Positions 17,441 to 64,000 of a DNA stretch of 64,000 nucleotides are shown here, one piece after another (position 1 is the first letter of the stretch; each line of letters starts with the position of its first letter). This DNA comes from Podarcis liolepis (taxonomy: Eukaryota), in NCBI GenBank assembly GCA_965112155.1, contig OZ218113.1; one strand, given 5' to 3'. Both the position numbers and the translations under genes were made by a program. The notes under the pieces are model-generated. The model was not told where the DNA came from and made no database searches. It saw nothing but the letters and a program-made list of their open reading frames with translations.

Positions 17441-17688
17441 AATAAAAAAATTCCTTCCAGTAGCACCTTAAAGACCAACTAAGTTAGTTCTTGGTATGAG
17501 AACTCATACCAAGAACTAACTTAGTTGGTCTTTAAGGTGCTAAAAACTCATACCAAGAACTAACTTAGTTGGTCTTTAAGGTGCTAAAAACTCATACCAA
17601 GAACTAACTTAGTTGGTCTTTAAGGTGCTACTGGAAGGAATTTTTTTATTTTGACTATGGCAGACCAACACGGCTACCTATCTGTAAC
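17441..17688 (-). mobile_element. Penelope-like fold-back (pLTR) element with an internal 44-bp triplication; ribozyme core absent
   Basis: 12-bp TSD cagaataatcta (17429-17440 / 17689-17700); inverted arms; same sequence family as 18534-18729. Confidence 0.75.
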
Positions 17689-40125: not shown

Positions 40126-40725
40126 CCGTATTTTTCGCCCTATAGGACGCACTTTTTCCCCTCCAAAAATGAAGGGGAAATCTGGGTGCGTCCTATGGGG
40201 CGAATGCAGGCTTTCGCTGAAGCCTAGAGAGCGAGAGGGGTCGGTGCACACCGACCCCTCTCGCTCTCCAGGCTTCAGGAAGCTCTGCGCAACCCTCGGG
40301 AGACCGGCTCCGAGGGTTGCGCAGAGCTGCCTGCAGTCCCCGGCTCAGCGCAGCTCTGCGTGGCCACCGGGAGCAGGGAGCGAAGTCCCACCCCGCTCCG
40401 GATGGCGGCGCAGAGCTGCCTGCAGTCCTGGGATCAGTGCAGCTCTGCGCGGCCACCGGGAGCGGGGCGCTAAGTCCCGCCCCGCTCCGGATGGCGGCGC
40501 AGAGCTGCCTGCAGTCCCGGGATCAGCGCACTTCTCCCCATCGCCAGCCCCACAAGCTCGGGGGACAGCGGGGAGGCAGAGCGTGCCTTCCCACTGTTCC
40601 CCGACCTGGTTCTTCCAGCCCCGCACCTGGGGGGGAAATAAAATTTTGTTTCTTTATTTCCCCCCCCCAAAAAAAAACTAGGTGCGTCCTATGGGCCGGA
40701 GCGTCCTATGGGGCGCAAAATACGG
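40126..40725. mobile_element. Tc1/mariner-type MITE (CCGTA TIR) with GC-rich hairpins and an 89-bp internal tandem repeat
   Basis: ta|ccgtattttt.cgccc.ataggacgc ... gcgtcctatggggcgcaaaatacgg|ta. Confidence 0.85.
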
Positions 40726-42722
40726 TATTTTACCAGGTGCCCAAAAGATTGCAGCGAAGGCACCTTGCTTGATTGCTGATAGGGAATTCCAAAGAAAGAG
40801 TGCTGCCATGCTAAAAGATCAATTTCTTCCAAGTGTAAAAGCAAAACTACTATATCTGGTTTTGCCCTAAGAAGCAAAAAGTGGTTGCCTCTATATCTTC
40901 TGTGCATGCAGAGTTTCTGCAGGGTTTCAAGAAGGAAGTCTCTCCCAGCCCCACTTGGAGATGGCAGAGATAGAGACTGGGATCTTTCACATACAAGGCA
41001 GGCGCTCTACAGCCCTCGCCCTCCCTAGACGTGTGACATACTCATGGTTGGTCCCCAGTCTGGGATGGTTGCCAGTTCACAGCCAGCCTTCACTTTCCAA
41101 ATTATTAATTTCACTTGCAAATTGGCACTATTTACTCAGCTGTGGGTTGTTGTTTTTTTGGATCTGCTCCCTGGCTCGAGGTGTCTGTGGGACTTCATGT
41201 TCCCGGTTTTGGCACTTATCCCTTGACTTGCAAGACAGGAGGATCCCAGAGCAGGATGTGCTCTGTTTTCGGAGACTACAAAGCCCATCATCCCTTACTA
41301 GCAGGACCAGTGGTCAGGGATGATGGGAATTGTAGTCCAAAAGCAGCTGGAGACCTAGGTTTGAGAAACCCTGCTTTGCAACATGGATGTAGGACCCATG
41401 GCCCTCCAGTTGTTGCTAGACTACAACTCCCATCATCCCTGACCAACAGCCATGGTTGGCTGGGGCTGATGGGACCTGAGAGTCCAATAGTGTCTTGGAG
41501 GACACCAGATCCCCCAGCCCTTGTTGCAGCTGCCCCTTCTCATTCTTTTGTACTTGAGATCCTTCTAAGTCTGGAGTCCTGTATGCCTTTGTTTGGAAGC
41601 AAGTCCCATTGAACCAAAGACTTTCTTCTGAGTAAACAGGCATATAAGTTTTAACATTTTACCCCCTGAGAACCTAGGGGCGGATTTACTAAAGTTCCCT
41701 TCAGGGATAGGTGCTGCCCATGCAATTATTTAGAGGAGGGGTGATATATCTTTGACTCTCGAGGTGTTGCTGAACAATAACTTCCATCTGCCCCAGCAAG
41801 CATGACCGACATCTCCAGCAACACCCAATTTATTAATTAAATAGGTCTGTTGTTCTGTTCTGTGTCTGACCTGAGATCCGTTGCTATACAGCTTCAAATC
41901 CTCAGATCGGCACTTTTGATAAACAGATAACATGCCCCCCCCCCCCCGGAGAAGGGGAGATGCCAAACTGGGGAGCTGGTGTGTTTTTTCTGGAGCAACC
42001 AGCGGTTTTACAATATTGACAAAATCAGCGATGGCTGTTCCCCATTGCGGACTGGCGAGGTGAAATGCAAGGAGCCCAGTAGAAGCCAGAGCCTATGGAC
42101 AAACCTTTGAACTATACAGAGCTCTTTGTCTGCCAAACCAAAGGATTATATCTGGTGCTAATCTTACTCAGATTAATTGAAATGAATGGCTCTACATTAG
42201 TCATTTCCGTTATTTTCAGTGGGTCTACTTTGAGCAGGACTAGCACTGAATGCAACTGGAAGCATATCCACTGCCCATCACAACTTCAGTAGTTGTGATC
42301 TTTGAAGCCAAAGTCTTCAAACACTGCCCCAGGGTTTTCTACTGTTTTTGGTGGGGGGGAGGAAAAACAAAAGCTCTCAAATTCTGAGCAAACGGGTCTT
42401 GTTGATTCTTGTGTTTTGCTCACCTTTTCTCCCCCTGATAATACCTTTCGCAAGTCTAAACACATTAATTTCTTGCTCGGGTGTGGCTTTTGAGCACAGT
42501 GCGCCAGGCGCAAAAGTACGTACAAAGGAGAGGGTTGCGGCAAGGGTGACTCACTTGGAGCCGGGTTATCTCTGTGCCTGGCTTTACCTGAAAGACCTGT
42601 CATGATATTAATGCAAATAGAAGGGGGAAGGTATTAACGGCTGACAGGTTTATAAGATTCCCTTTCTCTGCAATCTCTTCCACCTAACCCATTGTTGCCT
42701 TGGTCCTCTGGCTTGAAAAATA

Positions 42723-43066
42723 CAGTGGTGCCCCGCAAGACGAATGCCTCGCAAGACGGAAAACTCGCTAGACGAAAGAGTTTTCCGTTTTGGAGGTGCT
42801 TCGCAAAACGAATTTCCTATGGGCTTGCTTCGCAAGACGACAATGTCTTGTGAGTTCCTGCTGGTTTTTTTCCCCTCCCCCCCTTTTTCTAAGCCGCTAA
42901 GCCGCTTATCAGCTGATCCGATCAGCAGATAAGCCGCTAAAAGCCGCTAATAGCGCTAATAGCGCTAATCCGCTAATCCGTCAATGGGCTTGCTTCGCAA
43001 GACGAAAAAACCGCTAGACGAAGAGAATCACAGAACGGATTCTTTTCGTCGTGCGAGGCACCACTG
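42723..43066. mobile_element. Tc1/mariner MITE (cagtggtgcccc family), short 344-bp form
   Basis: TA TSD; TIR cagtggtgcc / ggcaccactg; gcaagacgaa subrepeats; same ends as 60296-62537. Confidence 0.85.
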
Positions 43067-43298
43067 TAATGGCAGCCCTATTAGTATTTTGCGGGTACTG
43101 CCCTTTGGGACTGGGGTGGGTGGGCAGGAGGAGGGGAGCCCCACAGGAGGAGGAGCCAGAGGCAGAGCCAAAGCCAACAAGAGGCAGCGGCAATTAATTC
43201 TAGTTTTGTCTCCATTTTCCTCCCTGTCTGCAAAACGGAGACAGAAGAGAAGAAAGGTGACAGGCCTGCCTATAAGTATGAAGGCCAGGCTTGTGAGG

Positions 43299-56334: not shown

Positions 56335-58366
56335 AGTGCAAACTAAAGGGTGGCAAATTTTACCACATGTGGTGGACATGCGAAAAGATGAAAAAGTTTT
56401 GGGATTTGATATATAATGAGTTGAAAAAAACTTTTCAAATACACATTCCCAAAGAAACCAGAGGCTTTTTTATTGGAGATGACGTGAGAAAAGAAGATCG
56501 TAAACTATTTCAGTATGCCACGACTGCCGCTAGGATTCTCAGGAGTGGAAATCCCAGGAGATCCCAATTTTATTGGAGTGGTAGACCAGTGTTTCCCAAC
56601 CTTTTTTGGGCAAAGGCACACTTGTTTCATGAAAAAAATCTCGAGGCACACCACCATTACAGCCCCGTGACGTCAGCGCGCAGCGTCACGCCGGGAGGGA
56701 CATGAATTGCTAGCAAATTACATAATCACCTCCTTGAGGGCTGGCTCATCTTCTCCGAAGGCAGAACCCCATTAATTAACAGCACAGACTCACACCATAG
56801 CCAAGACGAGGAGGGAAAACCTCAGTCATGCACAGTCATGCACATGTGGGGGCTAAATGAGGACGAAGACCGGGCAGAGAGCAGGGTTCAAATCACCCCA
56901 CCTGGCCAGGACAATCCCTGGGTGCTCCCTTGGGCCACTCGCCTGACCCACCTCGCAGGGCTGTTGTTGCGAGGATAACACGGGGAGAACCACGCGCGCC
57001 CCCAGGAGCTCCTTGGAGGAGAAAGTGGGCGATGAATGCAATGCACGAAATATATGAGAGGCGACCAGGTTTTGCAGGTGAGGGGCCCCCGCCAGCCTCC
57101 GCTTCCAACACCCGGCGCAACAACGCCGAAGTTTCCCCCCGGGCTCGGCTCGGGGAGCAGCGCTGCTCCCCCCCAGCTCCCCTTCGCCCTCCCGGCTCTC
57201 TCTGCCGCCCACTGGGGACCCCCCTCACCTGCCAAGTCCGGAGCGCCGGTGGAAGTTGCATGCATGCATGCAGGGCGCCGCGTTGCCATTGCATTGCACT
57301 GCACTCCATGCAACGCCTGCACGCATGCATTGCCTTGCACGCCCGCCAAGGGGTCTCCCCGCGGTCCGATGCGTCCCCTCCGGCGCGGATGCAGCATTGC
57401 AAAAATAAAACCCCCCGACGCAGCCCTACCTGGGGGGCAGCCTCCGCCGCCGCCGCTCCGCCTCCGCGGGGATCCCCGGGCTCCATCCTGCTGCCCGATC
57501 TCCGCGGGGGCGCAGGCAGGCTGCGCGGGGTCTGCACGGAAGAGCCCCTGCCCGCCCGGCCGCCGCCGCTGCTCTCATTCCATGGCCGGGAGAAGAGCGC
57601 TTCAAACAAAACGCCCGGCCCGTCAGGCCACGCTGGGAAACGTAGTTTGCGCACCCCGCGCGGGCGCGGAGCCCAAGGGCGAGGGGACTACGGATCCCGG
57701 CAGCCCCCGCGCCGGGGACGGAGGGGGAGAGACTGGGTGCAGGGATGGAGGGACGGGTGGGCGAGCGAGTGAGTGAGTGGCAGCCGCCAAGCCTTGGCCG
57801 AGAGCCAGGAAGGGCCTCCCCGGAGGAGGAGGAGGAGGAGGGAGGCGCAGAGCGGGAGGGAGGGAGGGAACCCCAGGGGTCATCTAGTGACGGCGCCCCA
57901 ATCGAAAATTTGACTTTAAAAAAAAAATCTTTCAAATTTTTTAATTTTTCCCGCGGCACACCAGGCAACATCTCGCGGCACACTAGTGTGCCGCGGAACA
58001 GTGGTTGGGAAACACTGTGGTAGACAAAATTATTTGAGTATGCAGAATTGGCAAAAATGACCTATAAAATTCGAGACCGTAAAATGACAAAGCTTGAAGA
58101 GGAATGGAGTAAATTTGTTAGGTACATACGAATTAATTGCAGAAGTTTAAAAACTGTAGCAGGATTAATATAAATCCTGTGATGTGAATAGAGGGTAAAT
58201 AATAATCTGTAAGAGAAGATGTAAATTCGGAAAACCGAAGCAGGGTAGGAGGGAAGTCCGGGCGCAAAATTGCGCAGGGTAAATAAGATGACACAAAATG
58301 TTGAATGTAAAAGTTTTAAGTTTTATTTATGTTTGTGAAAATCATTAAAAAGCATTTGAGGCGGGG
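56335..58366 (+). mobile_element. 5'-truncated L1 LINE (ORF2 C-terminal zinc knuckle and 3' UTR) split by a hAT insertion
   Basis: 12-bp TSD aaaacaggtcca (56323-56334 / 58367-58378) at a TT|AAAA site; C..GKFYHMWWTCEKMKKFWDLIYNELKK, then EYAELAKMT...EEEWSKF after the hAT. Confidence 0.85.
56587..58017. mobile_element. Non-autonomous hAT (Charlie-like) element, 1431 bp, with a CpG-island-like interior
   Basis: Perfect TIR cagtgtttcccaacc / ggttgggaaacactg; perfect 8-bp TSD tggtagac. Confidence 0.92.
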
Positions 58367-58685: not shown

Positions 58686-58854
58686 GGTGAACGGCTGCTA
58701 CGAGGCTCTTTCGGGAGGGAGCACCTCAGAAGGGTTCGAAGACTTCACGGGAGGCGTCACTGAGTGGTACGACCTACATAAGCCGCCCAGCGACCTCTTC
58801 CAGATCATCTTAAAGGCCCTGGAGAGGGGGTCTCTCATGGGTTGCTCCATTGAT
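58686..58854 (+). CDS. CAPN1: CAPN1 exon ([23 protein letters not shown]...GSLMGCSID)
   Basis: AG/GT bounded, 169 nt. Confidence 0.97.
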
Positions 58855-59406: not shown

Positions 59407-59490
59407 ATCACAAGTGCTTTTGACATGGAGGCTGTCACTTTTAAGAAGCTGGTGAAAGGCCACGCCTATTCCGTCACTGGAGCTGAGCAG
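59407..59490 (+). CDS. CAPN1: CAPN1 exon with the catalytic His ([28 protein letters not shown])
   Basis: AG/GT bounded, 84 nt; GHAYS motif. Confidence 0.97.
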
Positions 59491-60447
59491 GTGATTGTTG
59501 CGTTTCTACTATTTGGCGCTTGTTTGTTTTCCTTTTTATTTACAGTATTTATGTCCAGACCCCTTTTAGCAAAACAACAACAACAACAACAAAAACTCTC
59601 AGGGCACCTTAAACCAATCAATTCTAAGGTGGTCCCTGCCCTCAGCCTCACAATCTTAAGAAGTCAAGAGAGAAGGCCTAAAGCGAGGGCAGGGACCCTT
59701 CTTCATTCTGAGGGCCGCATTGCCTTCTTGGCAACTTTCTGAGGGCCACATGCCTGAGGCAAAAGTGGGTGGAGCAACAATGGCAGATTTTACCTTTGTA
59801 CAGGTAGGCTGGTTTCTACACAGGCCCTAACACACCCCCTTTGACCCTCTTGCAGGGAAGCAAGAGGCATTCTCAGAGTCCAAGGGCCTGTACCCACCTG
59901 GGTGTGAAACAAGGCCAGATAGAGAGGCCCTAGGCCTGAAATTCCCCATTTCTGACATAAAGAGGAACTCTATTCCTGCAGAGGGGAAACAGATAAAAGA
60001 ACAGAGGATCATCTATGTAGGAAAGTTTAATAACAGAGAGGTTGCCAGAAAAGAATCCTCCCAACAACAAGAAAAAGTCAATCAATCAATCAATCAATCA
60101 ATCAGATCTTTATTACAGTCATAGACCAGCATAAGTAAGGTGGGGAACAATTATTTAAAATCTGTAAAATGTTTTGGAAAGCTAAAATTATTAAAACAGA
60201 AGGTATATGTAAAAGATACAAGAATCTAAAAGAGGCTAAAAGAAGGGTTAGGACTGGAGCATTAAACAAATGTGGAAGAGCATAAAAGGTTAGTACAGTA
60301 GTGCCCCGCAAGACGAACGCCTCGCAAGACAAAAAACTCGCTAGACGAAAGGTTTTTTCGTCCGCGATTTGCCTCGCAAGACGAATTCCCCTATGGGCTT
60401 GCTTCGCAAAACGAAGCTTGCCCCGGGGACAGCGGGTCTTCTCTTTT

Positions 60448-61590
60448 GAAGCAAGGGGCTGCGGGGAGATAGCGATCTCCCTGCAGCCCCTTGCTGCAAA
60501 AGACGTCCGGGGGAAGCGGGGAAGCGAAGCGCTTCGCTTCCCCGCTTCCCCCGGACCTCTTCTGAAGCAAGGGGATGGGGGGAGATAGCGATCTCCCTGC
60601 AGCCCCTTGCTGCAAAAGACGTCGGGGGAAGCGGGGAAACGAAGCGCTTCGCTTCCCCGCTTCCCCCGGACCTCTTCTGAAGCAAGGGGCTGGGGGGAGA
60701 TAGCGATCTCCCTGCAGCCCCTTGCTGCAAAAGACGTTGGGGGAAGCGGGGAAGCGAAGCGCTTCGCTTCCCCGCTTCCCCCGGACCTCTTCTGAAGCAA
60801 GGGGATGGGGGGAGATAGCGATCTCCCTGCAGCCCCTTGCTGCAAAAGACGTGCGGGGGAAGCGGGGAAGCGAAGCGCTTCGCTTCCCCGCTTCCCCCGG
60901 ACCTCTTCTGTAGCAAGGGGATGGGGGGAGATAGCGATCTCCCTGCAGCCCCTTGCTGCAAAAGACGTCCGGGGGAAGCGGGGAAGCGAAGCGCTTCGCT
61001 TCCCCGCTTCCCCCGGACCTCTTCTGAAGCAAGGGGATGGGGGGAGATAGCGATCTCCCTGCAGCCCCTTGCTGCAAAAGACGTCCGGGGGAAGCGGGGA
61101 AGCGAAGCGCTTCGCTTCCCCGCTTCCCCCGGACCTCTTCTGAAGCAAGGGGATGGGGGGAGATAGCGATCTCCCTGCAGCCCCTTGCTGCAAAAGACGT
61201 CGGGGGAAGCGAAGCGCTTCGCTTCCCCGCTTCCCCCGGACCTCTTCTGAAGCAAGGGGATGGGGGGAGATAGCGATCTCCCTGCAGCCCCTTGCTGCAA
61301 AAGACGTCGGGGGAAGCGAAGCGCTTCGCTTCCCCGCTTCCCCCGGACCTCTTCTGAAGCAAGGGGATGGGGGGAGATAGCGATCTCCCTGCAGCCCCTT
61401 GCTGCAAAAGACGTCGGGGGAAGCGGGGAAGCGAAGCGCTTCGCTTCCCGCTTCCCCCGGACCTCTTCTGAAGCAAGGGGCTGGGGGGAGATAGCGATCT
61501 CCCCCCAGCCCCTTGCTTCAGAAGAGGTCCGGGGGAAGCGGGAAGCGAAGCGCTTCGCTTCCCCGCTTCCCCCTGACGTCTTTTGCAGCT
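60448..61590. repeat. Minisatellite: 10 units of 107-116 bp, each made of two hairpins
   Basis: Unit starts at 60448, 60564, 60679, 60794, 60910, 61026, 61142, 61249, 61356 and 61470. Confidence 0.95.
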
Positions 61591-61674
61591 GTTCCGAAGT
61601 GGGGCGGGGGGGCGGGGTCACCTGCCCCAGCCGCCCCACTTCGGAAAGCTGTTCCAGGAACAGCTCCATAGGAA

Positions 61675-62110
61675 CCTCCATAGGCGCCCGTCACCTCTCC
61701 AGGCAGGAGAGCGCGCGCGGGGCTAAACCAGCCCCCCGCGACCCTCTCCCAGCTGGAGAAGTGACGCGCGCCTATGGCAGGAGCCTCCATAGGCGCCCGT
61801 CACCTCTCCAGCCGGGAGAGCGCGCGCGGGGCTAAACCAGCCCCCCGCGACCCTCTCCCAGCTGGAGAAGTGACGCGCGCCTATGGCAGGAGCCTCCATA
61901 GGCGCCCGTCACCTCTCCAGCCAGGAGAGCGCGCGCGGGGCTAAACCAGCCCCCCGCGACCCTCTCCCAGCTGGAGTTGTGACGCGCGCATATGGCAGGA
62001 ACCTCCATAGGCGCCCGTCACCTCTCCAGCCGGGAGAGCGCGCGCGGGGCTAAAGAAACCATAGCCCCGCGACCCTCTCCCAGCTGGAGAAGTGACGCGT
62101 GACTATGGCA
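61675..62110. repeat. Minisatellite: 4 units of 109 bp, each an imperfect long hairpin
   Basis: taggcgcccgtcac at 61681, 61790, 61899 and 62008. Confidence 0.95.
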
Positions 62111-63010
62111 GCAGCCTCTGAAGGATGCACCGAAGCCTGGCGTGGGGGGGGGGCGGAGAGACCTTCTCCCCGCGCCAGCCTTCGGATGGCTGTCCTGAAG
62201 ACTTGGGGTGGGAGAAGGGTTTTCCTTCCCACCGCCAACATTCAGAATGCTGTTCTGAATGTTGGCGGTGGGGAGGAAAAACCCTCCTCCCACGCAAGCC
62301 CCGGGAACAGAGGGAAAGCGCTGCGCGCCTTCCCCTCTGTTCCCGTACCTGTGCTGAAGGCTTGCGGTGGGGAGAAAAGCCCTTCTCCGCACCGCCAGCC
62401 TGGCAAGCGGTTTCCCTAGGAACGCATTAATTGATTTTCAATGCATTCCTATGGGAAACCGTGCTTCGCAAGACGAAAAATTCGCTAGACGACAAAAATT
62501 GCGGAACGAATTAATTTCGTCTTGCGGGGCACCACTGTATATAAAAGGCTATGGCTATCCATTTACAGAGCGCTCTGCTATGGGTGTTCATTAAATCTAG
62601 TTTGTGGCACAGGTCATCATCCGACGAATTTTGGACGCTGCTATGCAGAACCTGGCAACGTCGTATGTTGTAGCAGGGTTGGTATCTTGAAAGCAGCAGG
62701 GAGGTATAGAATTTTTCTGGGCGCCCTGGGTACTTATGGAGTAGTGGGGAGATGAGGCTAATATGAATGTCTGTATAATATAGGCACTGGAGAAGCACAT
62801 GCTCTATTGTTTCTATATGTCCAGAGTCACAGGGGCATTGTCATTTTCCCACAGAAGCCATCTGGAACTTATTGCCACTGGGAAGCTATTCGGACTGTTT
62901 GAAAACAGGGCAGGGTCAATAATGTGGTCAAGTCAAGTGCAGCCTTGTTCTTTCCTTCCTCTGTGACAATCTCTTAACGGCCATCTCTCATTATCTCTCT
63001 GCTCCCACAG

Positions 63011-63096
63011 ATCAACTACCGAGGGCAGAGAGTTAACCTGATACGGATGCGAAACCCGTGGGGGGAGGTGGAGTGGACTGGAGCTTGGAGTGACAA
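63011..63096 (+). CDS. CAPN1: CAPN1 exon with the catalytic Asn ([28 protein letters not shown]); gene continues beyond the window
   Basis: AG/GT bounded, 86 nt; RNPWG motif. Confidence 0.97.
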
Positions 63097-64000
63097 GTAA
63101 GAAGGAAACCAGAAAGGGCTGGTGAAAGGGGGAGAAAGTCACCAGGGCGGCCATAACAAGTTCCCTCCTTCTGTCGACGAGCTTCCTTTGTTTTCATGGG
63201 CATGAGAATATCTGGGTTCCACTTCCCCTCCTCCTGGGCCATAGAGCTGTGGGGACAGAAGGCCTGTCTTCTCTATATACCGTTTTAATCCCACTGCAAA
63301 GAGCTCAGAGTGGCACGCACGATCTTCCCGGCGTCACATCAGGACAACTCTGCAAAGTAAGGTTAGGTTGAGAGACAGGAACCAGCCCAGGGTCATCTAG
63401 TAAGCTTTGTAGCTGGAGCAGGATTTGAATCCAGGACTCTCCAGTCCAGCATTCTAACCATCACAGACAGAAATGAAAGAGGCACAAGGTTTAGGCGCTT
63501 GAAAAAGAAGAGCCCCTGTGCCCGAAAGTTGGTGTGTGCAGGAAGCGAGTTTGCCAAGCAAAGTGGCAAAGAGAACCAGAGTGTGTGTTGTGTTTGGAAT
63601 CCAGAGTGAATATTTTGGTGACAAATCTATGAGAGTTACTAGGGCTACAGCAGGTGTGAAGAAAATTTGCCCTCCAGATGTTGCTGAACTGCCATCATCC
63701 TTGGCTGTTGGCCGTTCCTGCTAGGGTTGATCAGAGCAATGTCTGGAGAAGGCTTCCTCAACCTCGGCCCTCCAGATGTTTTTGGCCTACAACTCCCATG
63801 ATCCCTAGCTAGCAGGAGCAGTGGTCAGGGATGATGGGACTTGTAGTCTCAAAACATTTGTTTGATTGCCCCCCATTCATTTCAATTCACTGGGTTTCCT
63901 CCCACTGAATTCAGTAGGAGATCCAGCTTCTCTTCTACAGCCTGTAACTCTTGTGTTTTTCATCCACAAGGCAAGGTGAACATTTTAGACGATCTGTTAC

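What the first reader, a model, noticed from the sequence alone, without database searches (positions are those of the whole stretch)
60448..61590. Zig-zag palindromic array inside a MITE
Seen: full-length units contain a loop-less perfect 52-bp palindrome (gtccgggggaagcggggaagcgaagc|gcttcgcttccccgcttcccccggac) plus a second hairpin centred on gagat-agcg-atctc. The two linkers are diverged inverses of each other (gctgcaaaagacgtcc vs gcttcagaagaggtcc). The array is therefore a half-unit of about 58 bp alternating forward and reverse about 20 times, and the last unit flips register. Units are near-identical and keep their CpGs. Established analogue: the Xstir tandem-and-inverted repeats derived from a MITE in Xenopus. 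Inference: it grew by hairpin-primed strand switching (rolling-hairpin-like) rather than simple slippage, and it is a likely cruciform, length-variable site in a CAPN1 intron.
Basis: partly seen in the sequence, partly recalled or inferred. Interest (0 to 1): 0.7.

Follow-up and report, generated by a model that had tools for sequence, protein, structure and literature searches.

The report
Hairpin arrays reshuffled in Tigger transposons
This is a ten-unit hairpin repeat inside a young non-coding DNA transposon in a calpain-1 intron; copies elsewhere in the genome carry different unit numbers, flips and swapped interior pieces, and the repeat likely grew by ordinary head-to-tail duplication, with fold-back copying likely only creating and flipping units.

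Summary
The array is real: 10 units of about 116 bp (60441-61589) inside a TA-flanked, 2,242-bp non-autonomous pogo/Tigger-like element (60296-62537) in a CAPN1 intron. The proposed rolling-hairpin growth is not supported. Forward and reverse halves stay two distinct types in strict phase (199 of 210 junctions in 38 copies), which is what head-to-tail duplication of a 116-bp unit gives. Fold-back copying is real but rarer: 11 of 210 junctions, 17 of 147 inverted loops, and a perfect 158-bp terminal palindrome that older copies share, so it was inherited. Copies vary (36 lengths among 38). Two of three sister copies equal this array minus whole units. An intact autonomous partner (566-aa transposase, 18 of 20 copies fetched) carries a hairpin-free 145-bp array that varies as much (4-22 units) and is never inverted, so hairpins are not needed for length change. 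The element is a mosaic of three lineages, and one hairpin module is shared with a family with other termini. Whether transposition-induced gap repair or ordinary minisatellite instability drives the changes is unresolved. Verdict: new variant of a known kind (miDNA4-like), moderate interest.

The parts
60294..60295 (.). Left TA target-site duplication
   Evidence: diverged copies of the host repeat run from 60295 straight into the 62540 sequence with one TA (27 reads of X24)
60296..62537 (+). Whole non-autonomous pogo/Tigger-like element, 2,242 bp
   Evidence: same ends on 37 other fetched copies
60296..60317 (+). Left TIR (22 bp), followed by degenerate 16-bp subterminal repeats
60296..60415 (+). 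Left end of autonomous-element type
   Evidence: 118/120 to autonomous copies, 109/120 to subfamily A, 101-102/120 to subfamily B
60441..61589 (.). Zig-zag array: about 10 units of 116 bp (107-116), each two overlapping hairpins (a, b) that share an arm; subfamily-A type
60505..60556 (.). Perfect 52-bp loop-less palindrome (also 60967-61018 and 61083-61134)
61167..61380 (+). Two adjacent identical 107-bp units with the same 9-bp deletion, on forward halves only
   Evidence: the same unit is in sister L032
61416..61573 (.). Perfect 158-bp palindrome (77-bp arms, 4-nt loop): the register flip, a fold-back product inherited from an older copy
61586..61651 (.). Single hairpin module that is tandemly amplified in other copies (L034, L047, L057)
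61670..62118 (+). Second quasi-palindromic array, 4.1 x 109 bp; subfamily-B type
   Evidence: (z -13.7)
62119..62465 (+). Right interior of single hairpins, subfamily-B type
   Evidence: 62040-62420 is 376-379/381 to B and absent from A and autonomous copies
62466..62537 (+). Right end of autonomous-element type, with right TIR 62516-62537
   Evidence: 72/72 to autonomous, 62-65 to A, 65-66 to B
62538..62539 (.). Right TA target-site duplication
59407..59490 (+). Approximate upstream calpain-1 exon (His-motif reading frame)
   Evidence: the exon at 58687-58854 best matches calpain-1
63011..63097 (+). Downstream calpain-1 exon

Best explanation
This is a young non-autonomous Tigger-like DNA transposon whose interior holds ten head-to-tail copies of a 116-bp double-hairpin unit; the unit was likely born by fold-back copying, likely multiplied by head-to-tail duplication, and likely flipped once by template switching in an older copy. 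Steps. (1) Shown: TA-flanked TIR element with ends nearly identical to an intact transposase-coding partner; mobilisation by that transposase is inferred. (2) Inferred, with intermediates seen: two overlapping hairpins share one arm, so their outer arms are direct near-repeats about 113-116 bp apart; a slip between them made the first tandem unit with a hybrid linker. (3) Shown by phase: later units were added and lost in whole-unit direct steps; the mechanism (strand slippage or unequal exchange) is inferred. (4) Shown as products: occasional switches at hairpin centres invert loops or blocks or copy one arm onto the other. (5) Shown as a mosaic: ends, left interior and right interior come from three lineages; template switching between copies is inferred. 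My preferred trigger for steps 3-5 is repair synthesis after transposase excision (about 50%); ordinary replication or meiotic minisatellite instability is nearly as likely. No host function is indicated.
For: Phase: X and Y halves differ at 6 sites and alternate at 199 of 210 junctions in 38 elements; 11 are homotypic. Direct-step products: identical adjacent 107-bp units; a 2-unit higher-order repeat in L038; the L031 array equals the window array minus one 906-bp deletion and L032 minus two deletions (685, 114 bp), both with 0 substitutions. Hairpin-free control: the 145-bp array of the autonomous partner folds no better than shuffles (z -0.5), has 4-22 units, all in one orientation in 20 of 20 copies; 16 of 16 pairs with no substitution in 2,300 bp differ in unit number. 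Birth of the unit: in single-unit L066 the two outer arms are direct near-repeats 113 bp apart; the predicted hybrid junction occurs in 7 of 38 elements. Fold-back: 158-bp perfect palindrome, 17 of 147 'a' loops inverted, both orientations of the 109-bp unit motifs in 14 of 15 B copies. Mosaic: segment identities; L170 joins 90-, 109- and 114-bp modules in another order. Partner: CENP-B_N, HTH_Tnp_Tc5 and DDE_1 domains; 566-aa ORF in 18 of 20 copies, 9 of them identical proteins.
Against: The private-variant test was thin and mixed: 5 variants shared only among same-orientation halves, 3 across both orientations, so fold-back contributes in some copies (L043, L045). The 39 loci fetched were best hits to this unit among 568 candidates (40 scored), which favours arrays like this one. 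L039 needs 2 substitutions, 1 insertion and several gaps relative to the window array, so it is not a pure deletion product. The neighbouring pair L170 (different flanks, 6 substitutions and 1 indel in 1,772 bp) kept all three arrays unchanged, so neither transposition nor time always changes them. Nothing here observes transposition or repair directly.
Confidence: 0.75

Rival explanations
1. Ordinary minisatellite (VNTR) instability after insertion accounts for all length change; transposition only disperses the arrays.
For: Whole-unit direct gains and losses and higher-order repeats are what VNTRs show. By recalled rates, a minisatellite can change many times before one substitution hits 2,300 bp, so 16 of 16 differing identical pairs does not need transposition. 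L170 shows a copy pair with unchanged arrays.
Against: It does not by itself explain the three-lineage mosaic with switches in the subterminal repeats at both ends. In 31 subfamily-A copies, equal unit number is no commoner among close pairs (2 of 18 at 0-1 substitutions) than among distant ones (20 of 230 at 5 or more). Arrays of L170 stayed fixed through 6 substitutions while W and L031 differ by 8 units at 2 substitutions in 1,094 bp, which looks episodic, although the L170 arrays are short and conversion between neighbours could hide change.
Confidence: 0.4
2. One reading: the array grew by hairpin-primed strand switching at each turn (rolling-hairpin-like).
For: Strong predicted hairpins, a perfect 158-bp palindrome, 11 mirror junctions and 17 inverted loops, inverted blocks in L043.
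Against: 199 of 210 junctions keep X/Y phase; the 9-bp deletion recurs on forward halves only; a hairpin-free array varies as much; the flip is inherited.
Confidence: 0.07
3. The window's subfamily is an ancestral long element from which subfamilies A and B arose by deletion; no recombination between copies is needed.
For: Two sister arrays are exact deletion derivatives of the window array, so deletion is common.
Against: The interior is 97-99% identical to A on the left and to B on the right, while its left end is only 109/120 to A and 101-102/120 to B but 118/120 to the autonomous element. The exact left 46-mer occurs only 4 times in the genome and those four differ by 2-5 substitutions in about 1,094 bp, so this lineage is small and young.
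Confidence: 0.08
4. The array is an assembly artefact.
For: No reads of the same species were laid across it.
Against: The same units, ends and junctions occur at 37 other loci on many contigs; unit variants are shared with sisters letter for letter.
Confidence: 0.03

Closest known systems
miDNA4-Xt (Xenopus tropicalis Tc1/mariner MITE with an internal satellite; Scalvenzi and Pollet 2014, seen only through passages of PMC12628747, PMC9659126, PMC12054243)
   Same: Non-autonomous TIR element of the Tc1/mariner-pogo group with an internal repeat present as one unit or as an array of variable number; short direct repeats proposed as seeds of deletion and expansion.
   Different: miDNA4 is 300-600 bp and AT-rich with one repeat motif. 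Here the interior is GC-rich (64%), made of several hairpin modules that each can amplify, invert and move between lineages; lengths run 0.7-2.3 kb; an intact autonomous partner is present and has its own array.
Xstir/Xmix (Xenopus; Hikosaka and Kawahara 2004, seen only through passages of PMC12628747 and PMC9659126)
   Same: Tandem repeats derived from the interior of a MITE, found riding inside it.
   Different: The model reported there uses a stem-loop between two nearby elements with loop excision. Here the unit arises within one element from overlapping hairpins. Xstir also exists as free arrays; every fetched array with resolvable ends here lay inside TIRs (37 of 39 loci; 2 unresolved).
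Tigger family of pogo transposons (PMC7386202, PMC9219625, passages)
   Same: TA target duplication, short TIR, CENP-B_N plus HTH_Tnp_Tc5 plus DDE_1, spacing within DD29-36D, 566 aa (squamate range given as 532-618 aa).
   Different: That survey found at most 8 intact copies in a vertebrate and has no occurrence of 'tandem' in its main text; here 18 of 20 fetched copies are intact, 9 encode one identical protein, and a 145-bp array makes them 3.5-6.1 kb long.
Quasi-palindrome template switching (PMC8604942, abstract)
   Same: Arm homogenisation and spacer inversion between imperfect inverted repeats match the 158-bp palindrome and the inverted 4-nt loops.
   Different: Described for isolated short inverted repeats; here it acts inside dispersed tandem arrays and inverts multi-unit blocks.
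FEDoR of Rana temporaria (PMC12054243, passages); array instability inside P elements and during SDSA in yeast (recalled: Paques and Wegnez 1993; Paques, Leung and Haber 1998; not retrieved)
   Same: Long non-autonomous DNA elements that carry tandem arrays; recalled experiments in which break repair changed unit numbers of an internal array.
   Different: FEDoR has doubled inverted repeats and no known partner; the P-element and yeast cases were engineered arrays without hairpin modules.

Membership tests
pogo/Tigger non-autonomous element | TA target-site duplication | tested here: met
   TA on both sides in 37 of 38 elements; single TA in empty paralogous host-repeat copies
pogo/Tigger non-autonomous element | Short TIRs shared with a transposase-coding element | tested here: met
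   22-bp TIR; ends 118/120 and 72/72 identical to autonomous copies
pogo/Tigger non-autonomous element | Partner transposase with CENP-B_N, HTH_Tnp_Tc5, DDE_1 and DD29-36D | tested here: met
   Pfam hits; Asp190, Asp307, Asp344 give DD36D (positions; choice of catalytic residues from recalled pogo motifs)
Tigger (as against pogoR or other pogo families) | Placement in the Tigger clade of a transposase tree | not tested
   No reference transposases were fetched; pogoR shares the domain set (PMC7386202), so 'Tigger-like' is the claim
pogo/Tigger non-autonomous element | Mobilised in trans by the partner | not testable with these tools
   Needs a transposition assay
MITE (strict sense) | No coding remnant, TIR plus TSD, high copy number | tested here: met
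   Interior has no match to the autonomous element; 4,550 exact matches to a right-end 25-mer genome-wide, all subfamilies and autonomous copies together
MITE (strict sense) | Small and uniform in size | tested here: not met
   709-2,261 bp, 36 distinct lengths among 38
Rolling-hairpin concatemer | Adjacent halves are mirror copies of each other | tested here: not met
   11 of 210 junctions homotypic
Quasi-palindrome template switching | Perfected arms and inverted spacers | tested here: met
   158-bp perfect palindrome; 17 of 147 loops inverted
Xstir/Xmix | Sequence homology or shared termini with Xmix | not tested
VNTR locus | Allelic length variation at this site | not testable with these tools
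   Listed runs were contigs or short reads holding at most 0.73 of the flank's words; none could size the array
Cruciform-forming site | Extrusion in supercoiled DNA or in vivo | not testable with these tools
   Only single-strand folding predicted

The most novel reading that the evidence does not exclude
An apparently still active vertebrate Tigger-like system acts as an interior-shuffling engine: repair of transposase-made gaps resizes internal arrays, flips them at hairpins and swaps GC-rich hairpin modules between subfamilies and even between families with different termini, so that nearly every copy is structurally unique. With an intact transposase at hand, how non-autonomous elements acquire and remodel their interiors would become directly testable in cells.
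Probability: 0.3. Interest if true: 0.7.

Novelty: new variant of a known kind. Interest (0 to 1): 0.42.

Why it matters
The locus itself is probably neutral intronic sequence. The family also offers many young dispersed minisatellites and long palindromes (possible fragile or polymorphic sites) and a candidate active vertebrate Tigger transposase, which a published survey (PMC9219625) describes as rare. If changes are coupled to transposition, it would give a testable route by which DNA transposons build and spread satellite-like arrays and exchange interior modules.

Tried and rejected
Rolling-hairpin growth: rejected on junction phase. Flip as a local event: rejected. G-quadruplex: no canonical motif on either strand with loops up to 12 nt. 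Private-variant parity test: only 8 informative variants, 5 against 3, inconclusive. Haplotig test of allelic variation: the flank of L052 on small contig C105 has no near-identical full-length second copy. Orthologous empty site or polymorphism: both flanks lie in older repeats, no listed piece bridged the site as a unique sequence; only paralogous empty sites were seen. Rows dropped: L064 (no right end found) and L067 (mis-paired with a neighbouring short element) from 39 fetched; L085 (mis-paired) from 16 B-type loci; L168 (no right end found) from the 20 autonomous copies in the distance table; W, three sisters, L040, L061 and L065 from the distance test. First unit-labelling of autonomous arrays lost units and was redone. 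Literature: searches returned 0 papers; searches listed none that, by title or start of abstract, describes this family; the library lacks most subscription journals and Repbase/Dfam were not available, so the family may already be catalogued. Four look-ups for the recalled Paques papers failed. PMC2872659 (part 1 of 4 read) was not relevant. No supplements were read; the species table of PMC9219625 may list this transposase. Earlier scan notes: nothing by sequence or words; one unrelated note by place.

Full report
Observation. Cutting it at the ten 'a' and ten 'b' hairpin centres gives 19 complete halves of 49-58 nt that alternate in orientation. Forward halves (type X) and reverse halves (type Y) differ at six fixed sites. 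The 52-bp perfect palindrome holds at 3 of 10 'b' centres. The last unit has Y on both sides of its 'a' centre, which makes a perfect 158-bp palindrome at 61416-61573. CpG o/e is 0.74 against 0.38 for the window. Two units fold at z -21.9 against 60 shuffles.

The carrier. The array sits in a 2,242-bp element, 60296-62537, with 22-bp TIRs and TA on both sides, between exons whose best solved-structure matches are calpain-1. It landed in an older repeat: 27 reads of run X24, from diverged copies of that repeat, go from 60295 directly into sequence like 62540 onward, with a single TA. The element also holds a 4.1 x 109-bp hairpin array and several single hairpins. The genome is a 1.57-Gb vertebrate assembly; that it is a lizard is my inference from recalled repeat types and comes from no call.

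The family. A search with one unit gave 568 candidates, 40 scored. I fetched the 39 other scored loci; 37 gave a resolvable element with the same kind of ends. With the window's copy, these 38 run from 709 to 2,261 bp, 36 distinct lengths, TA-TA in 37, with 1 to 21 half-units. A right-end 25-mer has 4,550 exact matches genome-wide and the X linker 248. Other copies amplify other hairpin modules: about 64 bp in L034, L047 and L057, 60 and 90 bp in L171. Exactly four copies share the window's left 46-mer: W, L031, L032 and L039, with 10, 2, 3 and 6 units and 2-5 substitutions in about 1,094 bp outside the array.

How it grew. Strand switching at each hairpin would make neighbouring halves mirror images. 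Instead 199 of 210 internal junctions join an X to a Y; 8 are Y|Y and 3 are X|X. In the window array, same-orientation halves average 95.6% identity and opposite ones 83.5%, and a 9-bp deletion recurs on two successive forward halves only. The L031 array is the window array minus one 906-bp deletion, and L032 minus two deletions, both without a substitution; L039 fits less cleanly (2 substitutions, 1 insertion, 6 gaps). So part of this array was already in the subfamily's founder, and change runs in whole-unit direct steps. This sample favours arrays like the query, and the private-variant test was inconclusive (5 against 3).

A built-in control. DDE_1 hits lie 2-5 kb downstream of many of the 121 near-matches to the left end. 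I fetched 20 such places, chosen for having both, which favours intact copies. Eighteen have a 566-aa ORF and 19 have both ends with TA on each side; domains are CENP-B_N, HTH_Tnp_Tc5 and DDE_1; 9 of 18 proteins are identical. These elements carry a 145-bp array with no hairpin potential (z -0.5). It has 4-22 units, all in one orientation in 20 of 20 copies. Six copies with no substitution in 2,300 bp have six different unit numbers (4.5 to 20.6), and 16 of 16 zero-distance pairs among 171 differ. Hairpins are therefore not needed for length change; inversions were seen only in the hairpin arrays.

What fold-back did. Seventeen of 147 'a' loops are inverted, L043 has an inverted block, and 14 of 15 subfamily-B copies show the 109-bp unit motifs in both orientations. 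Arm homogenisation and spacer inversion are the described products of template switching between imperfect inverted repeats (PMC8604942, abstract). The window's 158-bp palindrome is inherited: L057 matches 157 of 158 and L047 156. The unit's birth is also explained by hairpins: in single-unit L066 the outer arms of the two overlapping hairpins are direct near-repeats 113 bp apart, and the hybrid junction expected from a slip between them occurs in 7 of 38 elements. This step is inferred.

Mosaic. The first 120 bp match the autonomous element (118/120; A 109; B 101-102), the 116-bp region matches subfamily A (126-139/141, and up to 185/188 over the last unit), 62040-62420 matches subfamily B (376-379/381), and the last 72 bp match the autonomous element (72/72; A 62-65; B 65-66). 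Both end switches fall in the shared subterminal repeats. L170 strings the 90-, 109- and 114-bp modules in another order, and its 90-bp module is 81% identical over 209 bp to the interior of an element with different termini at 40134-40730 of this window.

Trigger. Repair synthesis after excision would explain resizing, flips and swaps in one process; break-repair-induced array change in P elements and yeast is recalled, not read. Ordinary minisatellite instability explains resizing equally well. The data cut both ways: unit number is uncorrelated with end divergence in 31 A copies, the neighbouring pair L171 differs in two arrays, but the pair L170 is unchanged after 6 substitutions. I put the two-step model (fold-back birth, direct growth) at 0.75 and leave the trigger near even.

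Comparison and verdict. TIR elements with internal arrays of variable length are known: miDNA4, Xstir, FEDoR (passages of PMC12628747, PMC9659126, PMC12054243); seeding of minisatellites by short flanking direct repeats is reviewed in PMC6947457 (passages). The partner fits the published description of Tigger (PMC7386202, PMC9219625, passages), though no tree was built. My ten searches found no description of this family, but the library is partial and repeat databases were not available. What is distinctive is the set of interchangeable GC-rich hairpin modules, the clean separation of resizing from inversion, and a probably active partner. New variant of a known kind; interest 0.42.

Noticed in passing
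L150-L169 (for example G000:C1:3472821-3477281): Autonomous Tigger-like element, 3.5-6.1 kb, 566-aa ORF in 18 of 20 fetched copies, 9 identical proteins; one ORF-start variant alone has 34 exact copies. Candidate for a currently active vertebrate pogo transposase, with a 145-bp VNTR in its 5' region that shows 2- and 3-unit higher-order repeats.
   Followed up: partly
window 40134-40730: TA-flanked element with other termini (CCGTA type) and a GC-rich hairpin interior with a 2.4 x 89-bp repeat; that module is 81% identical over 209 bp to a module in Tigger-ended L170.
   Followed up: partly
window 42723-43067: Short (about 345 bp) member of the same TIR family whose interior is a run of 8-9-bp repeats instead of hairpins.
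   Followed up: no
window 61670-62118 and L070-L084: The 109-bp array is a second zig-zag system; B copies show block and loop inversions in 14 of 15.
   Followed up: partly
L170:2737-7341 and L171:2199-8309: Two pairs of near-identical copies in inverted orientation 1-2 kb apart with different flanks, likely local hops; arrays unchanged in one pair and changed in the other.
   Followed up: partly
window 17461-17630: An 82-bp near-perfect palindrome followed by 3 exact copies of 44 bp; resembles the end of a Penelope-like element (recalled, untested).
   Followed up: no
window 60078-60295 and 62540-62840: Host repeat interrupted by the element, with a (TCAA)7 run at one end; multi-copy in the related runs laid; possibly a retroelement 3' end.
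   Followed up: partly
window 57050-57880: CpG-island-like stretch inside the calpain locus with CA/TG-rich 17-18-bp repeats; could be a promoter of an internal or opposite-strand transcript.
   Followed up: no
L044 left junction: This copy is inserted directly at the terminus of another TIR element (flank ends in a similar TIR and TA).
   Followed up: no
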